From Lingula anatina (Eukaryota; Animalia; Brachiopoda), in assembly GCA_051362555.1 (NCBI GenBank), contig CM120646.1, forward strand, positions 21,514,001-21,578,000: a stretch of DNA of 64,000 nt. The letters are read 5' to 3'. Numbering within the stretch: position 1 is the stretch's first letter; each line of letters begins with the position of its first letter. The notes beneath the pieces are model-generated. The model was not told where the DNA came from. It saw nothing but the letters and a program-made list of their open reading frames with translations, and searched no databases. Positions 1 to 51,631 of the stretch are shown here, piece after piece. A program made the translations under genes and the position numbers.

Positions 1-1406
1 AACCTTACCAGTGTTTTAGTCTCTTTTGTAAAAACTCCATAAAATACAATTGGTATTTTTACTAGATATGGGGAAGTACTGCAATTAAGCGATGAAGTCA
101 CACGTATTACTAGAACCTTGTAAAAATGATTGATAACAAAATGAAAGATTTTAAAAATCATTTCCTTAAAGCTAAAAACATACCATGAGCAAGGTTCCTT
201 AAATATAAGATGATTTTTACTTTTCCAATCTGAACCAGGAAATGGTTGTTGCTCAGTCGTGCCCTGTTACCGATGTAAGATTTTGTGACTTAAACTGCAG
301 TATTCATATACAAATTACCCCTGTATAAAGTATACTCTAAACCATGACCTGCGTGGACACACTGATCACCAAAAGCCCTCTCTAAGGGACATTCACAAAT
401 TGTTTTTATCCATTATGCTGTGTACCTTCCCTCTACCTGGACCACAGATTGATTTTTCACTAGATATTCACAGACATGTCTTGTTTAAACTGACAGTTAT
501 TCTCTGTGCTGTGCCAGAGAAAACGTCCACATAATAAAAACTGCGGCCCTGGTGGAGGGTATTGTGTACCTTTGTCTACTGTGTCCGGCGAGAAATTTTC
601 GTATTAAAGTAATGTCATCACTCAGCTTGCCTCTAGTACAGGGCACTGGATGAAAAGGATGGTAATGGCGACTGGCTTGTTTTGACTGATAGACAGTTAC
701 AATGATGGCATCATATCCGGGCAGATTCATACGAAGCTGTTTCTCTACGTTACTGAGTGGCTGTTGGGTATAAACAGCCTGCTTCAGATAACCTTGTATT
801 GCTTTCGTCCATGTGCTACGTGGACTCCATATTGCTCTTCTTTATCACGTACTCGCTCAGGGCTGAACTAATATTTCAGGAATTCTAGATGACCAATTGA
901 GGCCATTCATTACACCTATCCACGCTCTCTGTCACGCCCTCTGCCACACCCCTCCAGCAGCCTCTTCCAGGTTTCTTGTCATGCCGTTTTCGTCTTAATT
1001 GACAAGATTCACCCTCTTAAAAAGTTCATTAGTCTGGTATATATACATGAATTGTTGAATTAATAGTATCACAGACAATGCTTTTATATTCAATAATTCA
1101 TAAAGATTCACCCTTTTTGACCCCTTTCTTGATGTTCAATCACTTGCACTCTCGGTGTCACCTGTACAATGTACCTGATGCTTTTAGTATTCGGTCCTCT
1201 TCTTCATCATTAGTCTGATGCACCCAAATCACTCTCATCTGTGGAACTCTTTTACTCTTGGATGTTTTGGGCCTTTTCTTGCCTCGCGTTACTTATTTGC
1301 CTGTGTTTTTCGTCATGTTTTAATCTAATGAATCATTTGTGTGGAATTTACATGATAATTTACTATGTTCAACGCATCTTAATCTAGTGGGGTCGTTTAC
1401 GAACTC

Positions 1407-1500
1407 AACAAATTCCTCATCGAAATTCAATGCGGATCTCTTGGAACCGCTCAGTTCCGTTACTGCAGCAAAGAATTCGTCCTTGGAAATGTGATCATCT
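1407..1500 (-). pseudogene. Truncated orphan EF-hand terminal exon, fused by deletion
   Basis: DDHISKDEFFAAVTELSGSKRSALNFDEEFV, then an abrupt junction to sequence matching ~10990. It matches the 11915-12068 exon up to the break. Confidence 0.75.
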
Positions 1501-1612
1501 CTGAAACGTGTGATAAGATAATGCAACAGGTGAATCGGATTGACGAATCTTTGTTTTGTGGATCACTTCACTTCATTGTTGAAAGCACATCATATACAGG
1601 TGTACCTGTATC

Positions 1613-1990
1613 TTCAATTATTGACCCCCGCCTCCAAGTTGTCTATCATGTTGTCTTCATCTAGACAAATTCTTTGTCAAAATTTAATGCATATCTCTTG
1701 GCGCCGTGGAACTCCGCAACTGCATCCAGGAATTCTTCCTTGGAAATGTGATCATCTCTGAAACGTGTGATAAGATAATGCAACAGGTGAATCGGTTTGT
1801 TGAATCATAACTTGATGACCAGCTCACTTACAATTTGAAAATTTATCTTTTCTGCATTTCTTCACAACCATTCCTTGTTTATCCGTTGTTGCTTTAATTT
1901 GATAAAAACCCTATACTAGTACACACAGAGCTGCATTGACACGACCTACCTGTGGTTAAATTTGTCATATGGAATAAAGGGCACTTTGCT
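1613..1990 (-). pseudogene. Degenerate paralog: EF-hand exon with premature stop plus first-exon relic; middle exons absent
   Basis: Acceptor at 1757 gives DDHISKEEFLDAVAEFHGAKRYALNFDKEFV*. An exon-1-type donor (cctacctgtgg on +) lies at ~1945. No signal or Cys exons lie between them. Confidence 0.7.
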
Positions 1991-2936
1991 ATACAATATA
2001 TCTAAAATGGCAATATTTTTCTACATTGTTTGCAAGTTGTTGGCATTGTGTTTTTGCATCCCGCACGCAGTAATAACCGTAGGTTTTATTGTTATAAAGG
2101 CTTTGTTAGCATTTTCAGTGTTTTAGTCTATGAAGCAATAAACTGCAAAATACTACAGGAAATTCTGGATCGCACTAAGCAAGGGGCACGTATTGCTACT
2201 TTGTACAAAATGATGAATTAAAAACCTCAGTAAATACAACTTTTTCTACAAGTATTGCGACTTAAGGCTATTTGACCCTTCATTATCATCCAGATAAAAA
2301 AATGAGTTTTTTCCTGCATTCAAAAATGCATCTTTGTGCTGATTCAAAACGATGAAAAATTCCTCGAAAATTTAAGATATCGGCGTTCATTTTTTTCATC
2401 GCAATATTTAAGCATAGGCAACCCAAAGTTATAATCAATTTAACGCCTTTCTATTTTGAGGTGGGATAGCAATCGTTATGGGGCGTAACTTCATCCCTGA
2501 ACAAGATTTCATCACGAAAATTGGTTGAGTTGACCAGGTGAGTATCAGCTACAATCTCTTGCCTTTATTGTGGTACAAATGTTTTTGTTATGGAGTTATG
2601 AGCCCCTTATTACAGATTTTCATGAAACAAATGCATTTTTTTACTTTATCAATGATAAAATCTGAACTCAGACTTTTAAGAAAAATCGCTGGCAGCGTAT
2701 GGAGTACCATAGGCAAGACTCCCATAAACTGGATAATTTTGTCTTTCCGTTCCAAGCCAGGAAATGGAAGATCGGCAGAAATATTGCAAAATTTTTCTGT
2801 ATCAAGCAGACTACCACACTCGTTGGTGCATGGTGTAAATATACTGGAACTGAATACCATAAAGTGAAATGTCATAATTATTCTGATCGCTTTATTCCGG
2901 TGTTGACGGTTCCAATAAGGACAGGTGAATCTTCAA

Positions 2937-4594
2937 TCAGTAACCACCGTCGAACTCATCAAAATCGATCAAGTTGTCTCCATTTAAGTCCATCTTGACA
3001 AATTCTTCATCGAAATTCAGTGCAGATCTTTTGGCACCGTGGAACTTCACAACTGCATCCAGGAATTCGTCCGTGGAAATGTGATCATCTCTGAAACGTG
3101 TGATAAGATAATGCAACAGGTGAATCAGGTTGTCGAATGACAACTTCAAATGTTTCTTCTTAATGTCTATTTCAGCGAATTTTTTTGACGCAGTTTTACC
3201 TCCGCTAAGAAATTTTATAGCAGGTGAGAAAAAATAACATTCATGGCCGTACATCTAGAAGAGAACAGGTGATTGCAACTCAAGGATAATTATTTTGATT
3301 ACCCACAAAAACAAATTGAAATGATTTGAGCAGGCTTATAAACTATCTTTCAATTTACTTTCATTAATGAAAGTCTAAGTAACAGGTATGTTCCAATTTC
3401 TAGTGCTATTGTTTTTCCTTACCCGTCAATGTCAATGTTTCTGAATACGTCTCTGGGGTTAACGACATGTTTCGACAAGGGACGTGCCAGCGATCTCTTG
3501 TTTAGGCACTCGCATGTAGATGATGGACTATTGAAAAAAGAAGATATGCTATCTAAATGCGAGGTAAGTCAATAATAACACACAAAGGACCATTAACTAA
3601 TGATCTACGCATGCCACTGGCCAATAGTATGCCACTCCTGTATGACTCTAGCCAAGAACCAGCAATGCTCTCCGTACGATGTTCTTTTTCACAGAAACCT
3701 TATATTGTAATATTGGCAGGGGCATATTAAAGAGAAGTTTGTTGAAGACAAACGTTTTTTTATGGCGACGGTTAACTTTATTGATTTCATGGGCCGTTGG
3801 AAAGTTTCATTTAAAATATCTGGGTTAATTCAACATTATGTAATGCTATAAAATAACTAAACACTATTCTTTTAATAGAGGTTCCTTTCAATAAAAGCGG
3901 CCGGCCAAATTAGAACACCACATTTGTGCTTGTCCTTTACTTACACTTTTGCGTGGGTTAATGAGGAGACATAAATGTGCTTGGCAGCTACTGTATATCC
4001 ACCGTGACTTACTTGATTTCCGCAGTGTTTAGAATGGCTGCCAGTAACGAAAAAATCAACCTTTAATCAATCAACCTTTAGAACAAAATCTTAGCAAAAG
4101 CAAGTAAGGCCTTCTCACTAAAATGCACTTACATGGAAAAGACCGAACACTTTGGGATAACGTTTCACCTGTACTTACAACCAGCCCCCGGACACCACTA
4201 CTTTGATATCGGCGCATCCGGATTTGCAGCCACCTTGGCAGGCACAACCGAAAAGGTTGCACCAACCTACTCCGCAATATGTATACGTCTGAAATATTAT
4301 ACACAAACGATATGCATTTGCTCCATTACTATACAGGAAACATAGACAAACAGCTCCACTTTTTTATCGTAAAGTAAAATAGAAAATGACGGTGGTATAA
4401 TACCCGTAATCATTGCTTTGAGGGCAATCTATTTAATACAACAATAACAACAGGCTAAATACAAAATATCTTACTTCGCTACAGTCTCCACAGAATACGT
4501 CGTTAACAGTGTGACAGCATACTGCTTGAGCGTGTTTTATAACAAGTGCTGCAGATAACGCTACGATAACAATAGTTACCGGCAAACAAGCCAT
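2937..4594 (-). CDS. Mytimycin-like secreted Cys-rich peptide/EF-hand precursor, copy A (162 aa; coding exons 4475-4594, 4179-4288, 3423-3527, 2937-3090; probable non-coding first exon with donor at ~4900)
   Basis: GT-AG, phase-consistent splicing gives MACLPVTIVIVALSAALVIKHAQA-VCCHTVNDVFCGDCSETYTYCGVGWCNLFGCACQGGCKSGCADIKVVVSGGWFPSSTCECLN-KR-SLARPLSKHVVNPRDVFRNIDIDGDDHISTDEFLDAVVKFHGAKRSALNFDEEFVKMDLNGDNLIDFDEFDGGY*. It has a signal peptide, 12 Cys, a dibasic site and two EF loops (DIDGDDHISTDE, DLNGDNLIDFDE). The family name comes from recalled mytimycin architecture and motif. Confidence 0.85.
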
Positions 4595-5914
4595 CTTCTG
4601 GAATAAGAAAAATGAAGATTTAAGACAAGAGCCATTCGCCGCCCTTTCCCCAACAAGACTTTTGACCGTACCAGTCAGAAGACAAGGATACATAGAGGCC
4701 ATGGAGACTTCTAATCGCCTGTTCCCTTCCGACCAAATCGGGATTGGATGTGATAATATTTCCTGTTATACGAATGATATGATTGTGACCAGCTAAATGT
4801 CCATTTGAAATTTTATAATTTTCACTTTCTTGACCATTTCTTTTTCTCCTGATGCCGAAGTACTGGTTTCTTTGTGAACACGGATTATATATCTACCTAC
4901 CTGTTGTTGCCTTTGTCTAATGAACGATGTTCTAATATATTATATATATATATATCTATATTGACAATCTTTTTCTGCACCATCACTCTCATCAGCGCTG
5001 TATTATACGTACAAAGTTATTAACGTTGTTTTTATTTCCCAAATACAAAATGACATTTTAAACCTTGCCAGTGTTTTAGTCTCTTTGATTAAAAAACTGC
5101 ATAAAACTACAAAGTTATTTTGGCTAGATACCGAAAAGTACTGCAATAAACTGATGCATATGGACACGCATTACTAATACCCTGTAAAAACATTTCTTTA
5201 AACGATTGCAGCTAAAACCAGACCATGAGCAAGGCTCCTTACATTTAATATAATCCTGTCTTTTTACTTACCACGGGCTGTATGGACACATTGATCACCG
5301 AGCGCTTTCTACATGAACAAAGGTGATTTGCACATTGTTTTTCTTCACTATGGTGTGTAGCTTTTTTCCAGCGAGACATTTTCGCATTAAAAATGATGCC
5401 ATCACTAAGCTCGCCTCTAGTACCGGACATTCGATGAAAAGGATAAAAGTGGTGACTGGCTTGTTTTTCCTTTTATAACGGCAGAATAGCTTTGTCAGTC
5501 TTCTCAATGTTTAAGTTAGCAAAAACTTTATTAAACACCAAATATACTTTGACTAGGTTCGTGCCGCATTGAAATAAAGTGAGAGACACGTACATTGTAT
5601 TACATGCACTACATTGTGTATAATGATTGATAACAGATCAAACAAAATAATTCATTTTTAAAAAGTATTGCAACGAAAACAAGACAATGAAATTGGTTCC
5701 TATGATATTAGATTATTTTAGATTTTTTCCACCTGAACCGGGAAATGGACATTCGACAACAATTATTCAAGAATCTTAGCCATCATGCTAACTGCAACGC
5801 TCGTGAGAACGTTTTAAACAGGTTAGAACTGTATGCAAAAGGGAAAACATCTGTATTTTGTGGATCACTTGATTTCATTGTTTAAAGCACATTATATACA
5901 GGTCTACATGTATC

Positions 5915-6470
5915 TTCAATTATTATTGACCACCGCCAAGCCCATCAAAAACGAGCATGTTGTCTCTCATGTTGTCTCCGTCTATACAAATTCTTCGTCA
6001 AATTCGATCATATTGTCTCAATTTAAGTCCATCTTTACAAATTCGTCATCGAAATTCAAAGCGGATCTTTTGGCACCGCGCAACTTCACAACTGCATCCA
6101 GGAATTCGTCCTTGGAAATGTGATCATCTCTGAAACGTGTGATAAGATAATGCAACAGGTGAATCAGTTTGTTGAATCACAACTTCAAATGTTTCTGCGT
6201 CTACACTGAATATGATAGTATTTACCTTTTTTCTGGATTCACGGCGTCGATGGAGCAATTTCAATAATTTTCCTATTATGCAAATGACAAGGTGATGACC
6301 AGCTCATTACAATTTAGAACTTTCTCTTTTCTGCAATTCTTCTCAGCCATTCCTTGTTTTTCCGACGTTGCTTTAATTTGATTTAAACCCCTATGCTAGT
6401 ACACGCGGAGCTGCATTAACACGACCTACCTGTGGTTAAATTTGTCATATATGGAATAAAGGGCGTTCTG
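5915..6470 (-). pseudogene. Degenerate paralog: EF-hand exon with GGA>TGA stop and internal duplication, plus first-exon relic
   Basis: Acceptor at 6129 gives DDHISKDEFLDAVVKLRGAKRSALNFDDEFVKMDLN*. Donor relic cctacctgtgg at ~6425. Confidence 0.7.
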
Positions 6471-7015
6471 CTATACATTATATCTATAATGACATTATTT
6501 TTCTACATTGGTTGCAAATTGTCAGCGTTGTGTTTTTGCATCCCGCACGCAGTAATAAACGCTGCTTTTTCTGACATAAAGCTTTTGTTAGCATCTTCAG
6601 TGTTTTTGTCCATATAGCAAAACACTGCATGAATCTACAAGAAAATGTGGACCTTACTGAAATAAAGTGAGACACACGTATCGCTACTTTGTGCAGAATG
6701 ATGAAAAAAAAAACTCAATGTATACATAATTTTCTAAAACTATTGTGGCACAAGCTTGAAACAAACCACAGGCAATTTTCTTATTCTAATAATTTAAAAA
6801 TTAATAATTTTGTCTTTTGCGGTCCGAACCAGGAAATTATAATGGAAGAACGGCAGAAATATCGCAAAAATCTACTTTATCGAGCAGACGACCACACATG
6901 TTTTCACATGTTATATTGGAATTGAATTCATACGATAAAGTGAAAACATTGATAAATTATCCAAATCGCTTTATTCTGATTTTGACGGTGCCTTTTAGGA
7001 CATGTTTATCTTCAA

Positions 7016-8623
7016 TCACTGATCACCGTCAAACTCATCAAATTCGATCTTGTTGTCTCCATTTATGTCCATCTTGACAAATTCCTCATCGAAATTCAAT
7101 GCAGATCTCTTGGCACCGCGCAACTTCACAACTTCATCCAGGAATTCGTCCTTGGAAATGTGATCATCTCTGAAACGTGTGATAAGATAATGCAACAGGT
7201 AAATCGGGTTGTCGAATGACAACTTCAAATGCTTCTGCTTAATGTATACGTCAGCGAATTTGTTTTGACGCAGACTTCCCTCTGCTAAGAAATTTTTAGA
7301 GCAGATGAGAATATAAAAATAACATTCATGGTCATATATCTAGAAGAGAACAGGTGATTGCAACTCAAAGAAAATCATTTGGATGATCCACATAAACGAA
7401 CTGAAACGAATTGAGCAGGTTCATAAACTATCTTCAATTGACTTAAAATGAAAGTCTAAGTAACAGGAATGTACCAATTTATAGTGCTACTGTTTTCTCT
7501 TAACGTCAGTGTCAATGTTACTGAATGCGTCTCTGTACACACCGAATGTATTGAACAGTTTCATGAATTATGTCATGTTTCTGTAGAGTAGCATGTATGA
7601 AAGAGTTAGTGACGGGTATGTATTCATTTCTAGTAAAACTTACTCTCTTACCCGTCAATGTCAATGTTTCTGAATACGTCTCTGGGGTTAACGACATGTT
7701 TCGACAAGGGACGCGTCAGCGATCTCTTGTTAAGGCACGTGCATGTAGCTGATCGACTATTGAAAAAGAAGATATGCTATTCATGTGCGAGATAAGTCAA
7801 TATTTTCAGTCAATATTTCATACAAAGGACCATTAACGAATGATCTACGCATGTCACTGGCTAATAGAGGCCTCATAGAGCTGCCACTCCTGTATGACTC
7901 AGAACAAGACCCAGCAATTCGTTCCGTAAGATGTGTTTTTTTTTTCACAGAAACCTAATATTGTAATGCTGGGAGGGGCATATCAAACCTGCTTGGCTGC
8001 TATATTCACTATAAATAACTTTTTTTTGCTTTTCACAGTATTCATAATGGCTGCCAGTAATGAAAAAAAATCAATTTTAAAATAGAACAAAATCTTAAGA
8101 AATGCAAGTGCAAATGCCTGCTCACAAATATGCACAGACCGAATACTTTGGGATAACGCCTCGATTGTACTTACAACCAGCCCCCGCCCTCTACTCTGAT
8201 ATCAGAGCACCCGGATCTGCAGCCGCCTTGGCAGTTGCATCCGAACATGTTGCACGAACCTACCCCACAATATGGTCCTCCCTGAAAAATCATACAAGAA
8301 CGATATAAACTTGCGCCATTATTATTATCCAGGAAAGAAAGACAAGCTATATACTTTGATTGCAAAATGCCGAACATGTAGCCTACTGTATTTATTGTTT
8401 TACATAGAATGTTATTAATATAATCATATCACCGAGCAAGTAACAACTGAAAACCGTTCCAATTTCTTGTACTGTTTCTAAATTAGACACAAAATAATCT
8501 TACTCCGCCACAGTCTCCACAGAAGCCTGCCTTAATAGTATTACAGCATACTGCTTGGGCGTGTTTGATAACGAGTGCTGCTGATAACGCTGCAACAACA
8601 ATGGTTACCAACAAACAACCCAT
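7016..8623 (-). CDS. Mytimycin-like precursor, copy B (161 aa; coding exons 8504-8623, 8175-8281, 7652-7756, 7016-7169; non-coding exon donor ~8976)
   Basis: MGCLLVTIVVAALSAALVIKHAQA-VCCNTIKAGFCGDCGGGGPYCGVGSCNMFGCNCQGGCRSGCSDIRVEGGGWFRSATCTCLN-KR-SLTRPLSKHVVNPRDVFRNIDIDGDDHISKDEFLDEVVKLRGAKRSALNFDEEFVKMDINGDNKIEFDEFDGDQ*. Exon phases match copy A. Confidence 0.85.
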
Positions 8624-10096
8624 CTTCTGTAATAAGACGAATGAAGATATTAGATAGGAGGCTTTCGACGCCCTTTCCCCAACTAGATTTTGACCACATC
8701 AGACAGAAGATCAGAATACAGTAGGGGTGCCCTCTAAGCACCGGTCCTTTACGTGGTTTCACTGTTTCAAATCAGGATTTATGTTATTGCAAAAGCTTTC
8801 AGAGAAATATAATTTTCCTGTCCTACGGGTGATATGATGGTGACCAGCTAAATCGGCATTATTAATTATCAATTAAATCAATAATTGTCACTTTCTTTAC
8901 TACATCTTTTTCTCCTGACGCTGAGTTATGATTTAACTTGAAACTCTATACTACTGCCTCCATAAACTCTACCTACCTGTGGCTGGTTTTGTCGAATGAA
9001 GGATGTCCTGAAATGTTATTTATCTAAAATGACAATCTTTTTCTGCACCATCACTCTCATCACGCTAAATTTTACGTACGCAGTTATCAACGTTGTTTTT
9101 ATTTCACAAATGCAAAATGACATTGGTAACCTTGCCAGTGTTTTAGTTTCCTTGGTAAAAACTGCATAAAACTACAAATGCATTTTGACTAGATACCGGA
9201 AAGAACTGCAATAAAGCGATCTAGTCACACCTATAACTAGTACATTGTAAAATGATTGAAAACAAAATAAACGATTTTCCAAATCATTTCCTTAAACTTC
9301 TGCAGCTAAAAATATACCATGAACAAGGTTCCTTACATAAAAGATAATTTTGACTTTTCCGATCTGAACTAGGAAACGTGGACAAATGCCCTCTCCAAGG
9401 GACATTCACAAATTGTTTATCCATTATGCTGTGTACCTGTCCTCTACTGGGGCCACAGATTGATTTTTCACTAGATATTCACAGACATGTCTCTGGTGAA
9501 ACTGACAGTTATTCTCTGTACTGTGCCAAAGAAAACGCCCACATAATTAAAATAAAAAACTGCGGCCCTGGTGGATGGTATTGTGTACTTTTGTCTACTG
9601 TGCCTGACGAGAAATTTTCGTATTAAAGTAATGCCATCACTCAGCTTGCCTCTAGTACAGAGCATTGGATGAAAGGGATGGTAATGGTGACTGCCTTGTT
9701 TTGACTGATAGACAGTTACACAGATGGCATCATATCCGGGCAGAATCTGACGAAGCTGTTTCCCTACGTTACTGAGTGGCTGTTGGGATAAGCAGCCTGC
9801 TTCAGATAACCTTGTATTGGTTTCGTCCATGTGCCACGTGGACTCCATATTGCTCGACTTTACCATGTGCTCGCTCTGGGTACCAGCAGGGCTGAACTAA
9901 GATTTCAGGAATTCTAGACGACCGATTGAGGCCATTCATTACACCTTGTCCACGCTCTGTCACACCTTCTGTCACGCCCTCTGCCACGCCCTCTGCCACA
10001 CCCCTCTAGAAGCCTCTCAGGATTCTTGTCATGCTGTGTTGGTCTTAATTGACAAGATTCACCCTCTTAAAAAAGTTCATTAGTATATATGGATAA

Positions 10097-10222
10097 ATTG
10101 TTGAATTAAAAGTATCACAGACAATGCTTTTATACCGTCAAATCTTCACCTCTACTCTGGCGGTAAATTTGTAAATTTGACGGTATAAAAGCATTGTCTG
10201 TGATACTATTAATTCAATAATT
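10097..10222. repeat. ~126-bp inverted repeat (hairpin/MITE-like)
   Basis: attgttgaattaaaagtatcacagacaatgcttttataccgtcaaat versus atttgacggtataaaagcattgtctgtgatactattaattcaataat. Confidence 0.8.
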
Positions 10223-10325
10223 CATAAAGATTCACCCTTTTTGACCCCTTTCTTGATGTTCAACCCCTGGAACAATCACTTACACTCTCGGTGTCACCTG
10301 TACAATGTACCTGATGCTTTAAGTA

Positions 10326-10777
10326 CAGGGCCGTAGCCTGAGCAAAATGCCAGGGGGGGCAGTAAGCGGACACGAGGGGGCAAAGCCCCCGAGGGGGGAG
10401 GGTGGGGGGGTATCCCCCTCCCACGGTGTGGAAAATTTTTATAAACTGTATGTATTATACTGCATTCTAGTGCATTTTAACTGTTTTAACTGCTCAATCA
10501 GAAGTCAGAAATTGTGGGTTCATTTTGCCATACAAATACATTTTTCAACACAACACGCCAATTGGACTTCATTTCGTAGATTGTCTCAAGATCAGAAATA
10601 ACGTTTCTTCCTCTGTGGACAAGCAAGACAGCCAATCCGTGCATTTTCTCACAGAATAGATACCAACTTTGCAATTTTTTTTTTACCTTTGCGATTATCT
10701 ATTTTTTTTTTTTTGCACCTCAAATCCCAGGTGGGGCAACTGCCCCCCCCCCTGCCCCCCCGGAGGCTACGGCCCTG
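10326..10777. mobile_element. Non-autonomous DNA transposon (MITE), TIR CAGGGCCGTAGCC, 5-bp TSD AAGTA
   Basis: cagggccgtagcc...ggctacggccctg is flanked by aagta at 10321-10325 and 10778-10782. The paralogous empty site gatgctttaagtattcgg is at ~19194. Confidence 0.85.
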
Positions 10778-11324
10778 AAGTATTCGGTCCTCTTTTTCAT
10801 CATCAGTCTGATGCACCCAAATCACTCTCATCTATGGAACTCTTTCACTCTTGGATGTTTTGCCCCCCCCCCCCCCTTGCCTCACGTATCTTATTTTTCT
10901 GTGTTTTTTCGTCATGTTTTAATCTAATAAATCATTTGTGTGGAATTTACAGGATAATATTCCATGTTCAACGTATCTTAATCTGGGGTCGTTTACGAAC
11001 TCGGCACCATTTTTTTAAGTAAGATAACCTCAAACGATACCAAAACTGCAAACATATCTCATATCTCTTGTAAGCTCAGGAAAAAAACGTATAACAAAAT
11101 TCGTGCTAACAAATACGTCCTGGGGTCTTTAACGGCCTGGTGCAAAATGCTGAATTAAAAACCTCAGAGAATACAACATTTTCTAAAACTATTGCGGCTT
11201 AAGGTCATTTGACCCTTTATTTTCATCCAGATACCGAAAATGAGTTTTTTCCTGCACCTAATTATTCAATAATGCATCTATCTTTGTGCTGATTTGAAAC
11301 AATAATAAAAAATAATAATAAAAC

Positions 11325-11355
<31 letters not shown>

Positions 11356-11914
11356 GAAAATCTAAAATATCGGCGTTTATTTTTTTCATTGCAATATATA
11401 AGTATAGACAACTGAAAGCTTTAATCGTCAATTTCACGCCTTTCTATTTTGAGGTTAGATAGCAATCGGTATGGGGCGTAACTTCATCCCTAAACAAGAT
11501 TTCATCACGAACATTGGTTGAGTTGGCCAGGTGGGTATAAGCTACAATCTCTTGCCGTCATTGTGATTTAAATGTTTTTGTTATGGAGTTATGAGCCCCT
11601 TATTACAGATGTTAAATAAACAAAGGCATTTTTGCTTTATGAATGATAAAATCTGAATTCAGACTTTGAAGAAAAAATCACTGGCAGTGTATGGAGTACA
11701 ATAGGCAAGGTTCCCATAAACTGGATAATTTTGTCTTTTTCATTCCAAACCAGCAAATGGAAGCTCGGGAGAAATATTGCAAATATTTACTGTATAGCTG
11801 GGGCGTTGTGTATATATACTGGAACTGAATACAATAAAGTGGTAACATTTCATAATTATCCTAATCGCTTTATTCCAGTATTGATGGTTCCAATAAGGAC
11901 AGGTGTATCTTTAA

Positions 11915-12421
11915 TCAGTAACCACCGTCGAACTCATCAAATTCGATCATGTTGTCTCCATTTAAGTCCATTTTGACAAATTCCTCATCGAAATTCAATG
12001 CGGATCTCTTGGAACCGCTCAGTTCCGTTACTGCAGCAAAGAATTCGTCCTTGGAAATGTGATCATCTCTGAAACGTGTGATAAGATAATGCAACAGGTG
12101 AATCGGATTGACGAATCAAAACTTCAAATGCTTCTGCTTAATGTTTACTTCAGCGAATTTCTATTGACTTCTCTCAGCTAAGAAATGTGATAGCAGGTTA
12201 GAAAAAAATGTGTGGCCATACACCAAGAAGAAAACAGGTGATTGCAACTCAAAGGAAATTATTTTGATAATCCACAAAAACGAGTTGAAACGAATTGAGC
12301 TGGTTCATTATGTATCTTTCAATTGACTTTTATTAATGAAAGTCTAAGTAACAGACATGTATCAGTTTTTAGTGCTACTGTTTTTTCTTACCCGTAAATG
12401 TCAATGTTACTGAATACGTCT
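11915..12421 (-). pseudogene. Orphan but intact EF-hand terminal exon (11915-12068) with a 30-nt micro-exon-like segment (12392-12421); signal and Cys exons missing
   Basis: DDHISKDEFFAAVTELSGSKRSALNFDEEFVKMDLNGDNMIEFDEFDGGY* with an intact TTTCAG acceptor. The upstream AG...GTAAG segment encodes DVFSNIDIYG. Confidence 0.7.
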
Positions 12422-13324
12422 CTGTACACACCGAATGTATTGAACAGTTTTTTAATTTTTTAACGCTATTTTTATTGCACAAATGCAAAATGGCATTGTT
12501 ATCCTTGCCAGTGTTTTAATCTCTTTGGTAAAAACTGCATAAAATTACAAATGTATTTTGACTAGATGCCGAGAAGTGCTGCAAAGAACTGATCGTCACG
12601 CATTACTAGTACCTTAAACGATTGCAGCTAGAAACAGACCATGAGCAAGGTTCTTCACATTTAAGATAATCTTGTCTTTTTACTTTTTTACCATGGGCTG
12701 CATGGACACAGTTATCACTGAGTGCCTTCTACATGTACATAAGTGATGTGCACAGTGTTCTTCTTCACTGTGGTGTGCAGCTTTATTTCCAGCGAGAAAT
12801 TTTCGTATTAAATTAATGCCACCACTAAGCTTGCCTCTAGTATACAGAGCATTCGATGAAAGGGATCGAAGTGGTGACTTTTTTTCATAACAGCAGTATA
12901 GCTTTGTCAGTCTTCTCAAAGTTTAAGTTAGCAAAAACTTTATTAAACACCGAATATACTTTGACTAGGTTCATGGCGTATTGAAATAAAGTGAGAGACA
13001 CGTACAGTGTATTACATGCTCTACCTTGTGCATAATGATTGATTACAGGTCAAATAATATAATTGATTTGTAAAAAGTATTGCAATTAAAATAAGACAAT
13101 GAAAGTGGTTCCTATGATATTAAATAATTTTAAACTTTTTCCACTTGAACCAGGAAATGGAAATTCGACAGCAATTATTAAAAAATCTACGTTATCATGC
13201 TGCAACGCTCGTGAGAAGGTTTTAAACAGGTTAGAACTGTATGCAAAAGGGAAAACATCTTTGTTTTGTGGATCACTTCACTTCATTGTTGAAAGCACAT
13301 CATATACAGGTGTACATGTATCTT

Positions 13325-13700
13325 CAATTATTGACCACCGCCTCCAAGTTGTTTATCATGTTGTCTTCATCTAGACAAATTCTTTGTCAAAATTTAATGC
13401 ATATCTCTTGGCGCCGTGGAACTCCGCAACTGCATCCAGGAATTCTTCCTTGGAAATGTGATCATCTCTGAAACGTGTGATAAGATAATGCAACAGGTGA
13501 ATCGGTTTGTTGAATCATAACTTGATGACCAGCTCACTTACAATTTGAAAATTTCTCTTTTCTGCATTTCTTCACAATCATTCCTTGTTTATCCGTTGTT
13601 GCTTTAATTTGATTAAAACCCTATACTAGTACACACGGAGCTGCATTGACACGACCTACCTGTGGTTAAATTTGTCATATATAATAAAGGGCACTTTGCT
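13325..13700 (-). pseudogene. Degenerate paralog, near-identical to 1613-1990
   Basis: Same premature TAG after FDKEFV and the same exon-1 relic at ~13655. Confidence 0.7.
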
Positions 13701-14660
13701 ATACAATATATCTAAAATGGCAATATTTTTCTACATTGTTTGCAAGTTGTTGGCATTGTGTTTTTGCATCCCACATGCAGTAATAACCGTAGTTTTTATT
13801 GTTATAAAGGCTTTGTTAGCATTTTCAGTGTTTTAGTCTATGCAGCAAAAACTGCAAAATACTACAGGAAATCCTGGATCGCACTTAAATAAAGCAAGGG
13901 GCACGTATTGCTACTTTGTACAAAATGATGAATTAAAAACCTCAGTGAATACAACTTTTTTCTACAAGTATTGCGACTTAAGGCTATTTGACCCTTCATT
14001 ATCATCCAGATACCGAAAATAAGTTTTTTCCTGCATCTTATTGTTCAAAAATGCATCTTTGTGCCGATTCAAAACAATGAAAAATTCCTCGAAAATTTAA
14101 AATATCGGCGTTCATTTCTTACATCGCACTATATAAGCATAGGCAACCCAAAGTTTTAATCAATTTAACGCCTTTCTATTTTGAGGTGGGATAGCAATCG
14201 GTATGGGGCGTAACTTCATCCCTGAACAAGATTTCATCACGAAAATTGCTTGAGTTGACCAGGTGAATATAAGCTACAATCTCTTGCCTTTATTGTGGTA
14301 TAAATATTTTTGTTATGGAGTTATGAGCCCCCTGTTACAGATTTCCATGAAACAAAGGCATTTTTACTTCATCAATGATAAAATCTGAACTCAGACTTTT
14401 AAAACAAATCGCTGGCAGCGTATGGAGTACCATAGGCAAGGCTCCCATAAACTGGATAATTTTGTCTTTCCGTTCCAAGCCAGGAAATGGAAGATCGGCA
14501 GAAATATTGCAAACATTTGCTGTATCAAGCAGACTACCACACGCTGGGGCGTTGTGTATATATACTGGAACTGAATACAATAAAGTGGTCACATTTCATA
14601 ATTATCCTAATCACTTTATTTTAGTGTTGACGGTTCCATTAAGGACAGGTGTATCTTCAA

Positions 14661-16273
14661 TCAGTAACCACCGTCGAACTCATCAAATTCGATCATGTTG
14701 TCTCCATTTACGTCCATCTTGACAAATTCTTCATCGAAATTCAGTGCAGATCTCTTGGCACCGCGCAGCTTCACAACTGCATCCAGGAATTCGTCCTTGG
14801 AAATGTGATCATCTCTGAAACGTGTGATAAGATAATGCAACAGGTAAATCAGGTTGTCGAATCACAACTTCAAATGTTTCTGCTTAATGTCTACTTCAGC
14901 GAATTTCTTTTGACGCAGTTTTACCTCCGCTAAGAAATTTTAGAGCAGATGAGTAAAAAATAACGTTCATGGCCATACATCTAGAAGAGAACATGTGATT
15001 GCAGCTCAAAGAAAGTCATTTGGATGATCCACAAAAACGAAATGAAACGAATTGAGCAGGTTCATAAACTATCTTTAAATTGACTTTTATTAATGAAAGT
15101 CTAAGTAATAGGAATTTACCAATTTATAGTGCTGCTGTTTTCTCTTACCCGTCAATGTCAATGTACTATACGTCTCTGTACACACCGAATGTATTGAACA
15201 GTTTCATGAATTATGTCATGTTTCTGTAGAGTAGTATGTATGAAAGAGTTAGTGTCGGGTATGTATTCATTTCTAGTGAAACTTACTCCCTTACCCGTCA
15301 ATATCAATGTTTCTGAATACGTCTCTGGGGTTAACGACACGTTTAGACAAGGGACGTGCCAGCGATCTCTTGTTTAAGCACGTGCATGTAGCTGATCGAC
15401 TATTGAAAAAGAAGACATGCTTTTTATATGCGAGATAAGTCAATATTTTCAGTCAATATTTCATACAAAGGACCATTAACGAATGATCTACGCATGTCAC
15501 TGGCTAAAAGGCCTCATAGAGCTGCAACTCTTGTACATGTATGAGTCAGAACAAGACCCAGCAATTCGTTCCGTAAGATGTGTTTTTTTCACAGAAACCT
15601 AATATTGTAATGCTTGGAGGGACATATTAAATCTATCTGGCTGCTATGTTCACTGTAAGTAACCTTTTTTGCTTTTCACAGTATTCAGAATGGCTGCCAG
15701 TAATAAATAAATAATAATAATAATAAAAAACCTGCAAGTGGGGCCTGCTCACAAAATACACTTAAACGGAGCAGACCGAATACTTTGGGATAACGTTTCA
15801 CCTGTACTTACAACCAGGACCCGCCCTCTACTCTGATATCAGAGCACCCGGATCTGCAGCCACCTTGGCAGGCGCAACCGAATATGTTGCACGAACCTAC
15901 TCCACAATAGAAAGCTGTCTGAAAAATTTTATGCAAAGGATGTGAACTTAGGCCATTGTTATACAGGGAACAAAGACAAAAAGCTTTACACTTTGATCGC
16001 AAAGAAAAATAAACCACCCGACTTTATTATAATACCTGTAATCATTGTTTCAGGCGGAATCTACTTAAAACAATCATAAGAACAAGCAAATAACAACTGA
16101 AAACTATTTCAATTTCTTGTGCTGTTTCCAAATTAGACACAAAACAATCTTACTTTGCTACAGTCTCCACAGAAGTCATACAGGACAGTGATACAGCACA
16201 CTGCTTGAGCGTGTTGTATGACAAGTGCTACGGAAAAAGCTGCAATAATAATGGTTACCGGCAAACAGGCCAT
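14661..16273 (-). CDS. Mytimycin-like precursor, copy C (161 aa; coding exons 16154-16273, 15812-15918, 15295-15399, 14661-14814; non-coding exon donor ~18549)
   Basis: MACLPVTIIIAAFSVALVIQHAQA-VCCITVLYDFCGDCSKTAFYCGVGSCNIFGCACQGGCRSGCSDIRVEGGSWFRSATCTCLN-KR-SLARPLSKRVVNPRDVFRNIDIDGDDHISKDEFLDAVVKLRGAKRSALNFDEEFVKMDVNGDNMIEFDEFDGGY*. Splice sites are intact. Confidence 0.85.
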
Positions 16274-16413
16274 TTTCTGAAATAAGAAGAACGAAGATAT
16301 TATATATGAGGCTTTCCCCCAACAAGATTTTGACCACATTAGTCAGAAGATCAGGATACAGTACGGGTGCCCTCTAAGCACCGATCCTCTACGTGGTTTC
16401 ACCGTTTCAAATC

Positions 16414-18350
16414 AGCGGGGTTGGTTGGAACACTTTTCACTTTTTTTGCGATATCTCAGCAGTCAAAGCTTTGGGGACAAAAATAAAAACACTGATAGGG
16501 GATAATTATATGCCGCACTCATCTATGAAATAAAACATCAAGTAGGTATTTTTATTTTAGAGTAATAAATACTCAAAGTTGCCTCTTAAAACGTTCCATC
16601 TCACCCCACCCGCGGGGTAAGTTGGAACAGTCAGTGGGGTGAGTTGGAACAAGAGGGCGAGTTGGAACGCTTGCATATAAATTCAAAGTATAATTCATTT
16701 TAAGAGTAGGTTTATCTATATTAATTTCCCAACAAGAACGTATTACCTTGTATTCGTATCTCCATAGTTTGTAAGCATTTTTTAGGTTTATAATTTGCTT
16801 TCAAATAGTCTTTTCGATATATAAACCATATCCAGTTACACTTCATTTCATAATGATAACAAAAGTGGTGTAGTTTAAGAGAAAAGAAATTGAATATCAC
16901 ATAACCTATCATCAACAGTATGTTAGACCTACAAATGAAAACTGTATCTCTTTCAACTAGACCTCAGAATCAAAATCGCAGTTCTGACATATGCACACTC
17001 GGTCACCCTTAATTAGTACAGTCTTCATGTGACCACTTTAGACAAACAATGCATTTAACCCATTTCTCTTTTGGTCGGCTGTTACTGAACGGCTCCCCAC
17101 AAACCAGACACGGCCACTCTTCTAATTCTGACTCAGAATCGCTGATCATTTTTAATTTCCTTTTCCTTGATTTTCTCTATCGACTAGAAATATTTAACTG
17201 TTTTTTTTATTTTTGTTGCACTTGTCCTTTTTAATTTTGTTGGGCTTGGTCTTTTCTTTTTCGAGCAGCTCTTTTTCAGGTGTGTCAGTTAGAACTGCAC
17301 TGCATCGTTTTCTTCTTTTAATCTTTGGGCTGCGACGGTGAGCCCAATTATTGCTGGACTTGAGCTGTTTTGGGGTTTTCTTAAGTGCGCTATAGTGTGC
17401 TGTAGCACCTCTTCCGATGAGGGCAACTAAGATTTCAACTGAAACTTTGCCTAAGTTACGAGGTGAATGTTTGTCTTTTCTGGCGGATTTTGTACTCTCG
17501 TTCACTAAACATTAACAGCAACCCCCAACCCATTACACAAAGCATTTAAAGCAGAATTGGTGTTGTATAGTTTATCCATAACGTAGGCTCTCAGCTAGAA
17601 TATTTTCATTTTGCCGCGAAATGCAGAGTAATAATCGACATTTTCTTCCACTTCTAACAGAAATTTATCGCAAAGAGTAACAGTTAGCATGCAGATCCCT
17701 TTCGACCAAACAGCTAGCAACTGCATTTAACAAGCAGTGACCATCCCCCCTTGTATTTTCTATAAGCATGTACATTCCGGCATCTTGGAGATGTTCTACC
17801 AGCTGGATTTCGTCTCCAGTTGGAGTTGTACTGGGTTACTACATTACTACTCTCTTTAAAGTTGAAAATAAAACATTTAGAGAGATAAAAAAAAAAAAAA
17901 TGTAAAGCACCGTGCGGGGTGGGTTGGAACACTCCTGACAGTGTTCCAACTGGCCCCATGTCAAATGTTCCGACCAACCCCCATGACGTCATGGCCTACT
18001 TATGACACTGTACTTCTTTAACACGTGGGAGGTGATTAAAAAAAAACTACAGCTTTTTGAACATAAAGGTGGTCCTAAGCGCTATGCACAGTTTCAGTGA
18101 TATAATCCTTATACTTTGGTTTACAGCACGATGAGAGTCAAAAATATGAAAACTTACTTCGAGTAGCGAAAATGAGTTTTTTTTCGCATAAAACTTTTAC
18201 TGCATTTTCGAAACTTCCAAAAGTTTACCGGATGAATGGCCATACCAAGTGACATTTTTATTCTGAAGGAGCACATGATCGGTCTTGTGGTTTAAGAAAT
18301 AAAGCCAATGTTCCAACTTACCCGCGTTCCAACCCACCCCGCTCTCCCCT
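16414..18350 (-). mobile_element. Internally deleted pogo/Tigger-like DNA transposon with C-terminal PHD-finger relic, in intron 1 of copy C
   Basis: Absent at the paralogous site in copy B (~8770). Inverted ends are agcggggttggttggaac / gttccaacccaccccgct, with subterminal gttggaac repeats. Minus-strand relics read RRKRCSAVLTDTPEKELLE (~17250-17320) and EEWPCLVCGEPFSNSRPKEKWVKCIVCLKWSHEDC...CQNC (~16975-17125, with an in-frame stop). Confidence 0.75.
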
Positions 18351-21075
18351 GTGTTATTGCAAAAGCTTTTAGTGAAATATTATTTTCCTTTCCTAAGGGT
18401 GATATGATAGTGACCAGCTAAATGGCAATTTGGAAATTAATAATTCTTTACCTTTCTTTGCCATTTCTTTTTCTCCTGACGCTGAGTTATGATTTGACTT
18501 GAAACTCTATACTACTGCCTGCATAAACTCGGCTTGTGCATCTACCTACCTGTGGCTGGTTTTGTCGAATGAAGGTTGTCCTGATATGTTATTTATCTAT
18601 AATGACAATATTTTTCTGCACCATCACTCTCATCAGCGCTAAATTTTACGTACGCAGTTATTAACGTTGTTTTTATTTCACAAATGCAAAATGACATTGC
18701 TAACCTTACCAGTGTTTTAGTCTCTTGCGTAAAAGCTCCATAAAATTACAATTGGTATTTTTACAAGATATCGGGAAGTACTGCAATTAAGCGATGAAGT
18801 CACAAGTATTACCTTGTAAAAATGATTGATAGCAAAATGAACGATTTTTAAAATCATTTACTTGAACTTTTGCAGCTAAAAACATACCATGAGCAAGGTT
18901 CCTTATATATATATATATAAGATAATTAATTAATTAATTAATTAATTAATTAATTAATTATATTTTTCAATCTGAACCAGGAAATGGCTGTTGCTCAGTC
19001 GTACCCTGTTACCGATGTGACAAACTGCAGCTCTACTTTGGCGGTAAATTTGTAAATTTGACGGTATAAAAGCATTCTCTGTGATACTATTAATTCAATA
19101 ATTCATAAAGATTCACCCTTTTTGACCCCTTTCTTGATGTTCAACCCCTGGAACAATCACTTACACTCTCGGTGTCACCTGTACAATGTACCTGATGCTT
19201 TAAGTATTCGGTCCTCTTCGTCATCATCAGTCTGATGCACTCAAATCACTCTCATCTATGGAACTCTTTCACTCTTGGATCTTTTGGGCCTTCCCTTGCC
19301 TCGCGTATCTTATTTTTCTGTGTTTTTTCGTCATGTTTTAATCTAATAAATCATTTGTGTGGAATTTACAGGATAATATTCTATGTTCAACGTATCTTAA
19401 TCTAGTGGGGTCGTTTACGAACTCGGCGCCATTTCTAAGTAAGATAACCACAAACGATATCAAAACTGCAAACATATCTCATATCTCTTGTAAGCTCAGG
19501 AAAAAAAAACGTATAACATAAAATTCGTCAGATACATCCTGGGGTCCTTAACGGCCCTATCCGGTACGGATATGGTTAACCCAGGATTCCCGTTGGCGCA
19601 GACGAATATGCTTTTAATGTAATATCATTTTCTTGCTCAACAAATTATATGATGGTGACCGGCTCAATTACAATTAGGAAATTATTGATTTCCGCTTTTC
19701 CCCACTTTTTAAAATCTTGTCCCTGAAACATAATTTTCATTGACACCCATGGCATCTACCTACTAGTGGTTCGTATTGAACTGCTATGTAGTGTATTCTT
19801 TATAATAACAACATTTTTCGGTATTGTTTGCATGTCACCAGCGCTGTATTTTACATTAGACCCGTATGCAGTAAATTACGCTTCTTTTTCCTTTCATAAC
19901 AGCAAAATAGCATTGTCAACCTTGTCAGAGTTTGAGATGGTAAAAACTGCATAAAACTACAAATGTAGTTCGACTAGGTTCGGGCCGTATTGAAATACAG
20001 TGAGAGACACGTATTACACGTACTGCCTTGTGCAAAACGATTGATTACAAATCAAATGAATAAATAATTTTCTAAAATTATTGAAGCTAAAATCAGACCA
20101 TAAAAGGGATTCCTATAATATTAGATAATTTTAGTCTTCTTCGATCTGAACAAGGGAATGGAAATTCGACAGCAATTGTTCAAAAACCTACGTTATTGTG
20201 CAGACTGCATGGCTCGTGAGAACATTTTAAATGAGCTGGAACTTTAAATAAATTTAACAATTTCACATGTTGAAATTCATTTTATTTCTTATCCAGTCAT
20301 AATTTTATCCCAGTGAGTGTTTAACTTATTAAAAAATCTATGTCAAAAATATAATTTACATGGATTTTTAACTGCTTTTACTGCAATCTACACCAGTATT
20401 TCATGGCATTTAATCTTGATGAAGTTGATTTCAAAATATTTGAAAATAATTCTTTAAACACTGTGAATATGAAATAATCCTGTCCTGGAATAAATCCATC
20501 ATTTATGACAGAGAGAAAATAATGCTTCATTCAATATAAAAATTCTGACAGTTAGGAAAACACTGGCCAGGCACCACAATTGCTTATACAAGGGTAATAC
20601 AATATCCTAATTCAACAGCTGACTTAGCAGCTGATGCTGTTTATTTCTGCTTGGTATCAGTTATGGAACTGTCTCCATACAACTAAAGACAATACACAAC
20701 AGACAATATACTTTTTCTTCTGACTATCAAATAGTATCCAATACGGATGTTATTTAAGAGTCAGAACACATTTCTCAAACTTGGTCCAAATAAGAAGATA
20801 CTGATAGACTACATAACTCATTACTCTTGATCTAAAAAATAAATAATAAAAAGATGAAAAAATGTTTTAAAAAATTTAGTTAATCTTATAAAATTTGTGA
20901 TGCCATGACTAGGAAATACTGCAGTCAGTGTGGTTAGGCATTAGCCTGATGCAAGAGCAAATAAAAAGGTTTTAACTAAAAATAATACCACTTACTAGTC
21001 CACTTTTACAATCTGACTGCCTGAAGGGCTAGTAGCTTTCAAGAGTTTCTGAAACAGACAGAAAATATATAGTAA

Positions 21076-37380: not shown

Positions 37381-38331
37381 CGTGGAAAGGGATATGTTCT
37401 ACTTGACGGCTGCCCTTAGTGTTGGGACACAAGGGTAATAAAAACTAATGCTGAATTTGATGAAATTGCGCTGCCCACCAGGCGGAAATATCAAGCACAA
37501 TGTACACAGTCCTGAGGGGACTTATTGGAACATTTCCCAGCTAGAGGCAATAGTAGTAAAACGGGCATCGATGCGAAATAATTAATAATAAACGCGCATA
37601 ACTGCAGGCAAATGTCAACCTACGGACACTACTAGACCTGTGTGGGGCTTTGTGTTAAATATAACATCGCCATCAAAATGGCGAGACTAGCGAGGATACA
37701 TGTAGCTTGTAGTCCAACTTTTAGTTGAGCTATTTGTACAGTTAGGTAAAAAACTGAACATTCCCTTAAAGTCTAAGAATCCCAGAATGGTGAACATGTA
37801 TTTTTTGGATAAGACACCAGGACATGGTGACATCTAGTCACGGTTTTTCCAAGATGGCCGCCAATTACCATTGGAATGCACACTCTGTCATATATGATAT
37901 TATTTCATATCACTAGCATATACGATCTAATATCACAGCACTATTTATGTGGCCAGATATTCTTTTGGCAGACTTTTTGTAAAACAAATTGTGAGCGGAC
38001 GTCACCAGGTGCTGGTGTCATATTCAAAAACACTACTATCGGCGTTAAAAGCAATTTGATCAAATGCAGTGATTCTATTACAAATATGAACAATTATGCT
38101 CAATAACCGCATAATTCTCACCTTTTGAAAGCTCATTCTGTCCACGCAACTCCTATTTTCACCACACAGCCTCTAATAATTGTTTTGAAATGCACTAGAT
38201 CTACACGTATAATTTTTAATTTTTTCGAAGAAAAAAAGACATACTCGTAGGCTTTTGTGGTACATATCCTACACGAGCAGATTACTTGTCGGGTTAATTG
38301 TGCTAGTTAAAATAACAAGAAAATACATTTC

Positions 38332-51631
<13,300 letters not shown>

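What the first reader, a model, noticed from the sequence alone, without database searches (positions are those of the whole stretch)
2937..16273. Hidden tandem family of secreted 12-Cys peptide / KR / double-EF-hand precursors (mytimycin-like, Diedel-motif immune effectors)
Seen: the ORF track shows only fragments, but splicing 4 small exons yields three intact 161-162 aa precursors. Each has a signal peptide ending HAQA, a 61-62 aa domain CC-x7-CGDC-x6-CGVGxCNxFGCxCQGGC-x3-C...CxC (12 Cys), NKR|S, then two canonical EF-hand loops, the first assembled across a splice junction (DIDG|DDHISxDE). Established: mussel mytimycin antifungal peptides have a signal + 12-Cys peptide + EF-hand-bearing C-terminal extension and a CC..CxDC..NIFGCxC motif. 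The CGxGxCNxFGCNCxGGCR motif is also the hallmark of insect and insect-virus Diedel proteins. Inference: this is a divergent, probably uncharacterised antifungal or immune-modulating peptide family in which a Ca2+-sensing pro-domain may control folding, storage or convertase release.
Basis: partly seen in the sequence, partly recalled or inferred. Interest (0 to 1): 0.82.

Follow-up and report, generated by a model that had tools for sequence, protein, structure and literature searches.

The report
Mussel-type antifungal peptide genes in brachiopod
Three intact tandem genes in a lamp shell (Lingula) encode precursors built like the mussel antifungal peptide mytimycin, likely secreted defence peptides, and their sequence links that supposedly mussel-only family to the fruit-fly immune protein Diedel and to relatives in amphioxus and fungi.

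Summary
Three minus-strand genes with four coding exons give open 162/161/161-aa precursors: signal peptide, 61-62-aa 12-Cys peptide, KR, acidic 74-aa EF-hand pair. Gene A matches a Lingula anatina RefSeq model at 160 of 162 residues. RNA reads span all three intron positions, at low depth and from non-identical copies or alleles. The precursor aligns end to end with mussel mytimycin (27%, E 3e-16; family profile 99.8%) and carries its type II cysteine array, so it is a new member of a known kind. What is new is the range and the bridge. The 2021 survey calls mytimycins restricted to Mytilida, yet Lingula has at least 15 related proteins. One profile built without mussel or full-length Diedel sequences finds mytimycin, Drosophila Diedel (PDB 3ZZO, E 1e-9), and the same core plus EF-hand in amphioxus and fungi. 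Only Diedel's disulfide-knotted subdomain is shared. Antifungal activity, cleavage and Ca2+ binding are untested. A Ca2+-sensing switch is weakly supported, because the EF part is missing in many relatives. Fold comparison of the Cys domain was inconclusive.

The parts
4475..4594 (-). Gene A coding exon 1: signal peptide, CC and CGDC
   Evidence: matches P0001
4179..4288 (-). Gene A coding exon 2: Diedel-type core
   Evidence: Pfam PF13164 27.5 bits, cut-off 21.3
3423..3527 (-). Gene A coding exon 3: CxC, KR site, first half of EF loop 1
2937..3090 (-). Gene A coding exon 4: rest of the EF-hand pair and stop; AATAAA at 2891-2896
8504..8623 (-). Gene B coding exon 1
   Evidence: RNA depth
8175..8281 (-). 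Gene B coding exon 2
   Evidence: PF13164 30.5 bits; donor at 8175 seen in RNA joints
7652..7756 (-). Gene B coding exon 3
   Evidence: RNA joints at both ends
7016..7169 (-). Gene B coding exon 4; AATAAA at 6970-6975
   Evidence: joint 7169-7652 in 4 reads of X9
16154..16273 (-). Gene C coding exon 1
15812..15918 (-). Gene C coding exon 2
   Evidence: PF13164 29.9 bits
15295..15399 (-). Gene C coding exon 3
14661..14814 (-). Gene C coding exon 4; AATAAA at 14615-14620
4901..4960 (-). Predicted non-coding first exon of gene A (donor after 4901; upstream end uncertain)
   Evidence: conserved donor and an acceptor-like tract just before each ATG; not confirmed by RNA
8977..9035 (-). Predicted non-coding first exon of gene B
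   Evidence: not confirmed by RNA
18550..18608 (-). Predicted non-coding first exon of gene C, displaced by a 1.9-kb insertion
   Evidence: 95% like the B copy; not confirmed by RNA
16414..18343 (.). Insertion with 18-bp terminal inverted repeats in the predicted first intron of gene C, likely a degenerate DNA transposon
11850..12424 (-). Truncated copy: whole exon 4, 3' UTR and 33 bases of exon 3; no exons 1-2
5995..6129 (-). Orphan exon-4 copy with a stop codon
13368..13467 (-). Orphan partial exon-4 copy with stop codons
1635..1757 (-). Orphan partial exon-4 copy with stop codons
1408..1500 (-). Orphan partial exon-4 copy

Best explanation
These are three intact tandem Lingula genes for mytimycin-type precursors, which are likely secreted and cut at the KR site to release a 6.1-6.5 kDa six-disulfide peptide predicted to act as an innate-defence, probably antifungal, effector. 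Shown: the gene models, splicing at the three intron positions, and homology to mytimycin and to the disulfide-knotted subdomain (SD2) of Diedel. Inferred: the peptide works by binding a target through the conserved Asn-hydrophobic-Phe-Gly loop, which is solvent-exposed in Diedel, rather than by cationic membrane lysis, since the three peptides are neutral or acidic. Inferred: the acidic EF-hand pair is loaded with Ca2+ throughout the secretory pathway and serves as an optional packaging or shielding pro-piece, not as a switch. The array grows by tandem duplication, keeping the peptide exons diverse while the EF exons stay alike and leave orphan copies.
For: End-to-end alignment with Mytilus edulis mytimycin precursor, 42/156 identities, E 3e-16. 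A profile of 26 relatives without mussel sequences against mytimycin: probability 99.8%, 135 columns. The first eight Cys have the spacing of Mytilus type II mytimycins, and Modiolus and Perna mytimycins in the supplement of PMC8004829 also share the following C-x-C-x3-C segment (compared by eye). In 15 of 15 comparisons with mytimycin, Diedel, amphioxus and fungal domains the score beats all 2000 plain shuffles and all but 0-2 of 2000 shuffles that keep Cys fixed. RNA joints at all three intron positions. dN/dS under 1 in every region and pair, 0.49-0.60 in the peptide. At least 15 Lingula-named relatives, a family expansion with pseudogenes like that of mussel mytimycins (PMC8004829). Mytimycin is antifungal and fungus-induced (PMC8004829, PMC10608444); Diedel is infection-induced and exposes the shared loop (PMC3307722). 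Net charge -3, +1, 0 against +1 for two mussel peptides cut the same way.
Against: No activity, cleavage, tissue or induction data for any Lingula member. Expression in the 7 runs laid is very low (6 to 27 reads on gene B's 2.2 kb per 11-12 million reads), and none of those reads was 99% or more alike, so transcription of these exact copies is not shown. The site is a plain KR, not the R-x-K/R-R furin site of mussel mytimycins. Gene A's peptide (pI 4.4) is outside the mussel range of pI 7-10. The tree does not join Lingula and Mytilus sequences with support. By BLAST the peptide scores as high or higher against fungal, amphioxus and Diedel domains than against Mytilus mytimycin. The nearest relative with a studied mechanism, Diedel, is a cytokine, not a killer peptide.
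Confidence: 0.6

Rival explanations
1. The released peptide is a host-directed cytokine that damps immune signalling or cell death, as Drosophila Diedel does, and does not attack microbes.
For: Exon 2 passes the Pfam Diedel cut-off in all three genes. The only PDB sequence match to the domain is Diedel 3ZZO. Neutral or acidic charge and low transcript level suit a signal. Diedel antagonises apoptosis and binds integrins (PMC6072105 passages, PMC9116668 abstract).
Against: Diedel's ferredoxin-like subdomain is missing (7 residues between CC and the next Cys, against 14+10-12+4 in fly Diedels). No RGD in the three proteins, though six named fly Diedel-like proteins checked also lack it. The precursor architecture is mytimycin's. 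The same core occurs in fungi and a green alga, which lack animal cytokine pathways (own knowledge).
Confidence: 0.2
2. The EF-hand pair is a Ca2+ sensor that gates folding, storage or convertase release of the peptide.
For: Both loops keep all Ca2+ ligands. The model matches Ca2+-binding EF pairs (Foldseek E 3e-4; VIA Z up to 9.7). The fusion recurs in mussel, amphioxus and fungi. A second KR lies between the EF-hands, where Ca2+-dependent folding could hide it.
Against: Only 6 of 15 Lingula relatives have two EF loops. 55 of 143 core-bearing sequences have any EF loop and 16 of those 55 lack a dibasic site (pattern count). Secretory-lumen and seawater Ca2+ are high enough to keep ordinary EF-hands filled (own knowledge).
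Confidence: 0.15
3. A secreted, uncut Ca2+-binding protein with a non-immune role, such as a component of the apatite shell matrix.
For: EF-hand domains are common in lophotrochozoan shell matrix proteins (PMC13425148 passages). Acidic C-terminal domain.
Against: Gene A's accession and locus id are not in that paper's supplement, whose tables do list Lingula XP accessions and name two other proteins for the EF-hand pair domain. Only that one accession was tested. The KR site is kept in 13 of the 15 Lingula relatives, and relatives occur in organisms without shells.
Confidence: 0.07

Closest known systems
Mytimycins of Mytilida (type II array; Mytilus edulis precursor AET85056.1 = P0185)
   Same: Signal peptide, 12 Cys in the type II order, CN-hydrophobic-FGC core, dibasic site, acidic EF-hand extension of about 75 aa, multi-copy family with pseudogenes, a non-coding first exon (predicted here).
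   Different: Brachiopod, not mussel. 27% identity. Longer loop before the last CxC. Plain KR instead of a polybasic furin-type site. One of three peptides is acidic. Activity unknown.
Diedel (Pfam PF13164; Drosophila CG11501, PDB 3ZZO) and its insect-virus homologues
   Same: N-terminal CC plus the C-x4-C-N-x-F-G-C-x-C-x3-C core, eight Cys in all, the number in subdomain SD2; secreted.
   Different: No SD1 subdomain, no RGD, four extra Cys, and a KR plus EF-hand pair that Diedel lacks.
Uncharacterised Diedel-core plus EF-hand proteins of Branchiostoma (P0178-P0180, P0194) and fungi (Diplodia P0177, Infundibulicybe P0173, Sistotremastrum P0133)
   Same: Signal peptide, same Cys core, C-terminal EF-hand pair; amphioxus also has the KR site.
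   Different: 8-12 Cys in other spacings; no dibasic site in the three named fungal proteins; no function on record in the databases searched.

Membership tests
Mytimycin | Signal peptide of about 23 aa | tested here: met
   Hydrophobic core (mean hydropathy 3.0-3.2 over 12 residues) with Ala at -3 and -1, 24 aa; no dedicated predictor was run
Mytimycin | Ten backbone Cys, plus two for the type II array CC-C-C-C-C-C-C-C-C-C-C | tested here: met
   12 Cys; first eight with the Mytilus spacing (Table 1 of PMC8004829)
Mytimycin | Conserved central core block around CN-x-FGC | tested here: met
   Cys-fixed shuffles reach the score in 0-2 of 2000
Mytimycin | Dibasic site after the mature peptide | tested here: met
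   KR in all three; not the polybasic furin-type form of mussels
Mytimycin | Acidic C-terminal extension of about 75 aa with EF-hand | tested here: met
   74 aa, net -6 to -9, two loops; PF13499 37.8 bits for P0001
Mytimycin | Mature peptide usually cationic (a tendency in PMC8004829, not invariant) | tested here: inconclusive
   Net -3, +1, 0 without the KR; two mussel peptides give +1 by the same cut
Mytimycin | Common descent with mussel mytimycins to the exclusion of amphioxus and fungal relatives | tested here: inconclusive
   Deep branches unresolved, long branches, bootstrap not settled
Mytimycin | Antifungal activity; blood-cell expression; induction by fungi | not testable with these tools
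   Tissues of the RNA runs are not given; no assay possible
Diedel (PF13164) | Pfam gathering score 21.3 | tested here: inconclusive
   Exon 2 alone 27.5-30.5 bits in 3 of 3; whole P0001 17.7 bits
Diedel (PF13164) | SD2 subdomain: eight Cys and the exposed Asn-hydrophobic-Phe loop | tested here: met
   Seven Cys invariant and one nearly invariant in 26 relatives; profile hit to 3ZZO E 1.4e-9. Met in sequence only
Diedel (PF13164) | SD1 ferredoxin-like subdomain | tested here: not met
   Insert after CC is absent (spacings), so these are not filed as Diedel proper
Diedel (PF13164) | Fold similarity of the Cys domain to 3ZZO | tested here: inconclusive
   Domain-only model pLDDT 52 and no Foldseek hit; full-model lists are filled by EF-hands

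The most novel reading that the evidence does not exclude
Mytimycin and Diedel are two offshoots of one ancient eukaryotic family of secreted eight-Cys knot peptides. Its ancestral form is signal + knot + EF-hand pair, kept in brachiopods, mussels, amphioxus and fungi, and insects dropped the EF pair and added a subdomain to make a cytokine later captured by viruses. All would act through the same exposed Asn-x-Phe loop on a conserved eukaryotic target, and 3ZZO would be the missing structural template for mytimycin.
Probability: 0.35. Interest if true: 0.75.

Novelty: new member of a known kind. Interest (0 to 1): 0.52.

Why it matters
PMC8004829 states that mytimycins appear restricted to Mytilida, that their structure and disulfide pairing are unknown, and that the EF-hand exon was likely gained in mussels; a 2023 review lists no homologues among known antimicrobial peptides (PMC10608444). 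The Lingula genes contradict the first point and bear on the rest. They pass the Diedel profile that two Mytilus mytimycins miss, so they bridge the two families and offer a solved template for the core. The same fusion in amphioxus and fungi suggests that it is old or has arisen repeatedly. Lingula also supplies a natural panel of at least 15 variants, with net charge from -3 to +12 and with or without the EF pair, for testing what the charge, the shared loop and the pro-piece do.

Tried and rejected
No whole genome is held for the window, so copy number outside it rests on database proteins. No RNA holder was listed by the word index; runs came by species label. The single-sequence word search found only P0001. 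Alternative splice sites of exon 2 that add a Cys or drop residues were rejected because RNA joints use the GTAAGT donor. The domain-only AlphaFold model was poor (pLDDT 52.5) and gave no Foldseek match in PDB; the wide VIA search on it was not obtained. The full model (pLDDT 75) matched only EF-hand proteins in PDB. In the viral library it had no match at E 0.001 or better; a granulovirus ORF106 aligned over 28 columns at 1.0 A rmsd and 54% identity but E 1.6, a lead only. ESM Atlas: nearest clusters were an unnamed mollusc-dominated and a nematode-dominated EF-hand cluster (0.95, 0.94) whose sequences cannot be seen, and Diedel at 0.76 for residues 1-90, a lead only. The 41-row tree of EF-bearing relatives left deep branches open; Diedels and EF-less relatives were left out of it. 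Positive selection was not seen (all dN/dS under 1, on 4-14 synonymous differences per comparison). Literature: 0 papers with Diedel + mytimycin, 0 with 'mytimycin-like', 0 with Diedel + fungi + amphioxus; 3 with Lingula + mytimycin and 3 with Diedel + EF-hand, seen as listings only. The 2018 paper on the Lingula immune repertoire (PMID 29278680) and Lamiable 2016 are not held, so a prior mention there cannot be excluded. Mussel intron positions could not be compared. Earlier findings of this scan: none.
Full report
Observation. The region is eukaryotic DNA of about 37% GC. Six-frame motif scans find three copies each of the signal/CC exon, the CN-x-FGC exon and the KR exon on the minus strand, and eight copies of the EF exon. 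Enumeration of GT-AG sites gives several open models per gene. The ones with GTAAG donors are A 4594-4475/4288-4179/3527-3423/3090-2937 (162 aa), B 8623-8504/8281-8175/7756-7652/7169-7016 (161 aa) and C 16273-16154/15918-15812/15399-15295/14814-14661 (161 aa). All have intron phases 0, 2, 2, a 12-Cys mature part of 61-62 aa, KR, and a 74-aa acidic piece with two EF loops. AATAAA lies 41 bases past each stop. The exon-2 motif is seen 3 times, and never in 30 local shuffles.

Independent support for the models. A search with exon 2 returned one protein, Lingula anatina LOC106158650, which equals model A at 160 of 162 residues. The window is therefore taken to be Lingula. Seven RNA runs with the same species label were laid (X1, X2, X4, X7 on 1000-17500; X3, X7, X8, X9 on 6900-9060). 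Intron 3 is spanned by 4 reads of X9 (2 starts, joint 7169-7652). Intron 2 is spanned by 3 reads of X7, and by 2+2+3 further reads of X7, X8 and X9 whose six unplaced letters fit the same joint in a divergent copy. Intron 1 is spanned by 4 reads of X1 (2 starts) that join an A-like exon 1 to a C-like exon 2. Depth is low, and no read was 99% or more alike, so the family is spliced as predicted but transcription of each window copy is not shown. A non-coding first exon is predicted from a conserved donor upstream of each gene and has no RNA support here.

What it is related to. Exon 2 passes the Pfam Diedel cut-off in 3 of 3 genes; the whole of P0001 does not (17.7 bits) but passes EF-hand_7. 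The exhaustive search with P0001 gave 512 proteins at E 0.001 or better; of the 150 listed, 22 were picked by eye because they match the N-terminal half (plus one EF-only fragment). A profile of 18 Cys domains (A1; it holds one 67-aa Drosophila protein with the short core, but no mussel sequence and no full-length Diedel) returned 116 proteins among 1059 candidates. They include the Mytilus edulis mytimycin precursor (E 2e-12), Drosophila erecta Diedel (E 3e-8), four Branchiostoma proteins, fungal proteins and a Chlorella protein. Two Lingula paralogues are already auto-named Diedel or Diedel-like. The same profile hits only 3ZZO in the PDB (E 1.4e-9). P0001 aligns with mytimycin from signal peptide to the last EF-hand (27%, E 3e-16), and the 26-sequence profile A2 does so at 99.8%. 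Shuffles that keep the cysteines in place reach the observed scores in 0-2 of 2000 trials (the P0185 stretch there began at a CC in the signal peptide and is slightly long), so the match is not a Cys-composition effect. Two Mytilus mytimycins do not hit Pfam Diedel at all, while 8 of 8 amphioxus and fungal proteins hit both Diedel and EF-hand models at E under 1, 4 of them above the Diedel cut-off.

Comparison with the literature. PMC8004829 (parts 1-3 of 5 of the text, passages, and supplement parts 1, 8, 9) defines mytimycins as signal + Cys-rich peptide + dibasic site + anionic EF-hand extension, with five Cys arrays; it says the structure is unsolved and the family seems restricted to Mytilida. 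The window genes have the type II array. PMC3307722 (parts 1-2 of 4) describes Diedel as a ferredoxin-like SD1 and a four-disulfide SD2 with a conserved exposed Asn77-Ile78-Phe79 loop. The eight Cys conserved across the Lingula-centred alignment match SD2 in number and, for the core, in alignment; SD1 is absent. PMC6072105 (passages) and PMC9116668 (abstract) give Diedel's anti-apoptotic and integrin-binding roles. PMC10608444, PMC12466427, PMC3039611, PMC7203481 and PMC13425148 were seen as passages; the last also by supplement search. Searches for a Diedel-mytimycin link found nothing in the library, which lacks most subscription journals.

How it likely works. Shown: architecture and homology. 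Inferred: ER entry, oxidative folding of six disulfides, cleavage at KR by a proprotein convertase, and release of a 6.1-6.5 kDa peptide. Net charge is -3, +1 and 0, which argues against simple membrane lysis and for binding through the conserved loop. By descent and architecture the best guess is antifungal or broader antimicrobial defence (0.6); a Diedel-like cytokine role is the main rival (0.2). The EF pair folds like Ca2+-binding EF pairs in the model and keeps its ligands, but it is optional across the family: two loops in 6 of 15 Lingula proteins, any loop in 55 of 143 core-bearing sequences. A packaging or shielding role in a Ca2+-rich lumen is more likely than a switch (own knowledge of lumenal Ca2+).

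Evolution of the array. The first 20 kb is a patchwork of direct segmental duplications. Peptide regions are 66-79% identical between copies and pro-pieces 86-91%; dS is 0.28-0.45 in the peptide and 0.09-0.17 in the pro-piece. This suggests recent exchange or partial duplication of the 3' exons, in line with five orphan exon-4 copies; the counts are small. All dN/dS values are under 1. The tree groups the window genes with two other Lingula loci (97/91) and leaves the relation to Mytilus, amphioxus and fungi open, so one origin of the fusion is neither shown nor excluded.

Results against the reading. Fold searches did not show similarity of the Cys domain to Diedel. Expression is low. The peptide is no closer to Mytilus mytimycin by BLAST score than to fungal or amphioxus domains. 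Gene A was already annotated, though as uncharacterised.

Verdict. Real, intact genes; new members of the mytimycin kind in a new phylum. Their value is as the bridge between mytimycin and Diedel and as evidence that the knot + EF-hand design is widespread in eukaryotes. Function remains inferred. Interest 0.52.

Noticed in passing
window 16414-18343: A 1.9-kb insertion with 18-bp terminal inverted repeats and internal copies of the repeat sits in the predicted first intron of gene C; its 105-aa open stretch has no Pfam hit.
   Followed up: partly
window 1950, 6430, 13660 (minus strand): Three extra copies of the predicted promoter and non-coding first-exon donor lie 200-300 bases upstream of orphan exon-4 copies, as if exons 1-3 had been deleted from those units.
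   Followed up: no
genes A, B, C, residues 131-133: A second KR lies between the two EF-hands in all three; two unnamed relatives (P0098, P0123) have KR at the same place.
   Followed up: no
window 7447-7700: Reads of run X7 run unspliced through intron 3 with many differences, from another copy or an intron-retaining transcript. B and C carry a 33-base duplicate of the end of exon 3 inside this intron.
   Followed up: no
P0015: A predicted protein made of two tandem CxC-KR-EF-pair units without the Cys core; may be a mis-joined model of a similar tandem array.
   Followed up: no
P0191, P0198, P0208: The short Diedel core is fused to PF04970 (LRAT-like domain) in an aphid protein and two unnamed ones.
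   Followed up: no
P0190, P0195, P0250, P0217, P0182: Aspergillus, Ascodesmis and Chlorella encode minimal secreted peptides that are little more than the Cys core.
   Followed up: partly
window 39248-51351 (minus strand): Exons of a receptor tyrosine kinase with Ig and fibronectin-III domains (Pfam hits).
   Followed up: partly
window 27592-30830 (plus strand): Exons of a CCDC84 gene (PF14968).
   Followed up: partly
window 36223-37398 (minus strand): A 391-codon open frame with a membrane-anchor-like start and a DxD motif, glycosyltransferase-like by eye; no Pfam hit.
   Followed up: no
window 22301-23488 and 58351-60444 (minus strand): A Lys-rich low-complexity 395-codon frame, and exons that look like a major-facilitator transporter by eye; no Pfam hit for the two frames tested.
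   Followed up: no
window 9441-9496, 10326-10760, 11212-11470: Short interspersed repeats that draw most of the RNA reads in the region, with loose ends.
   Followed up: no
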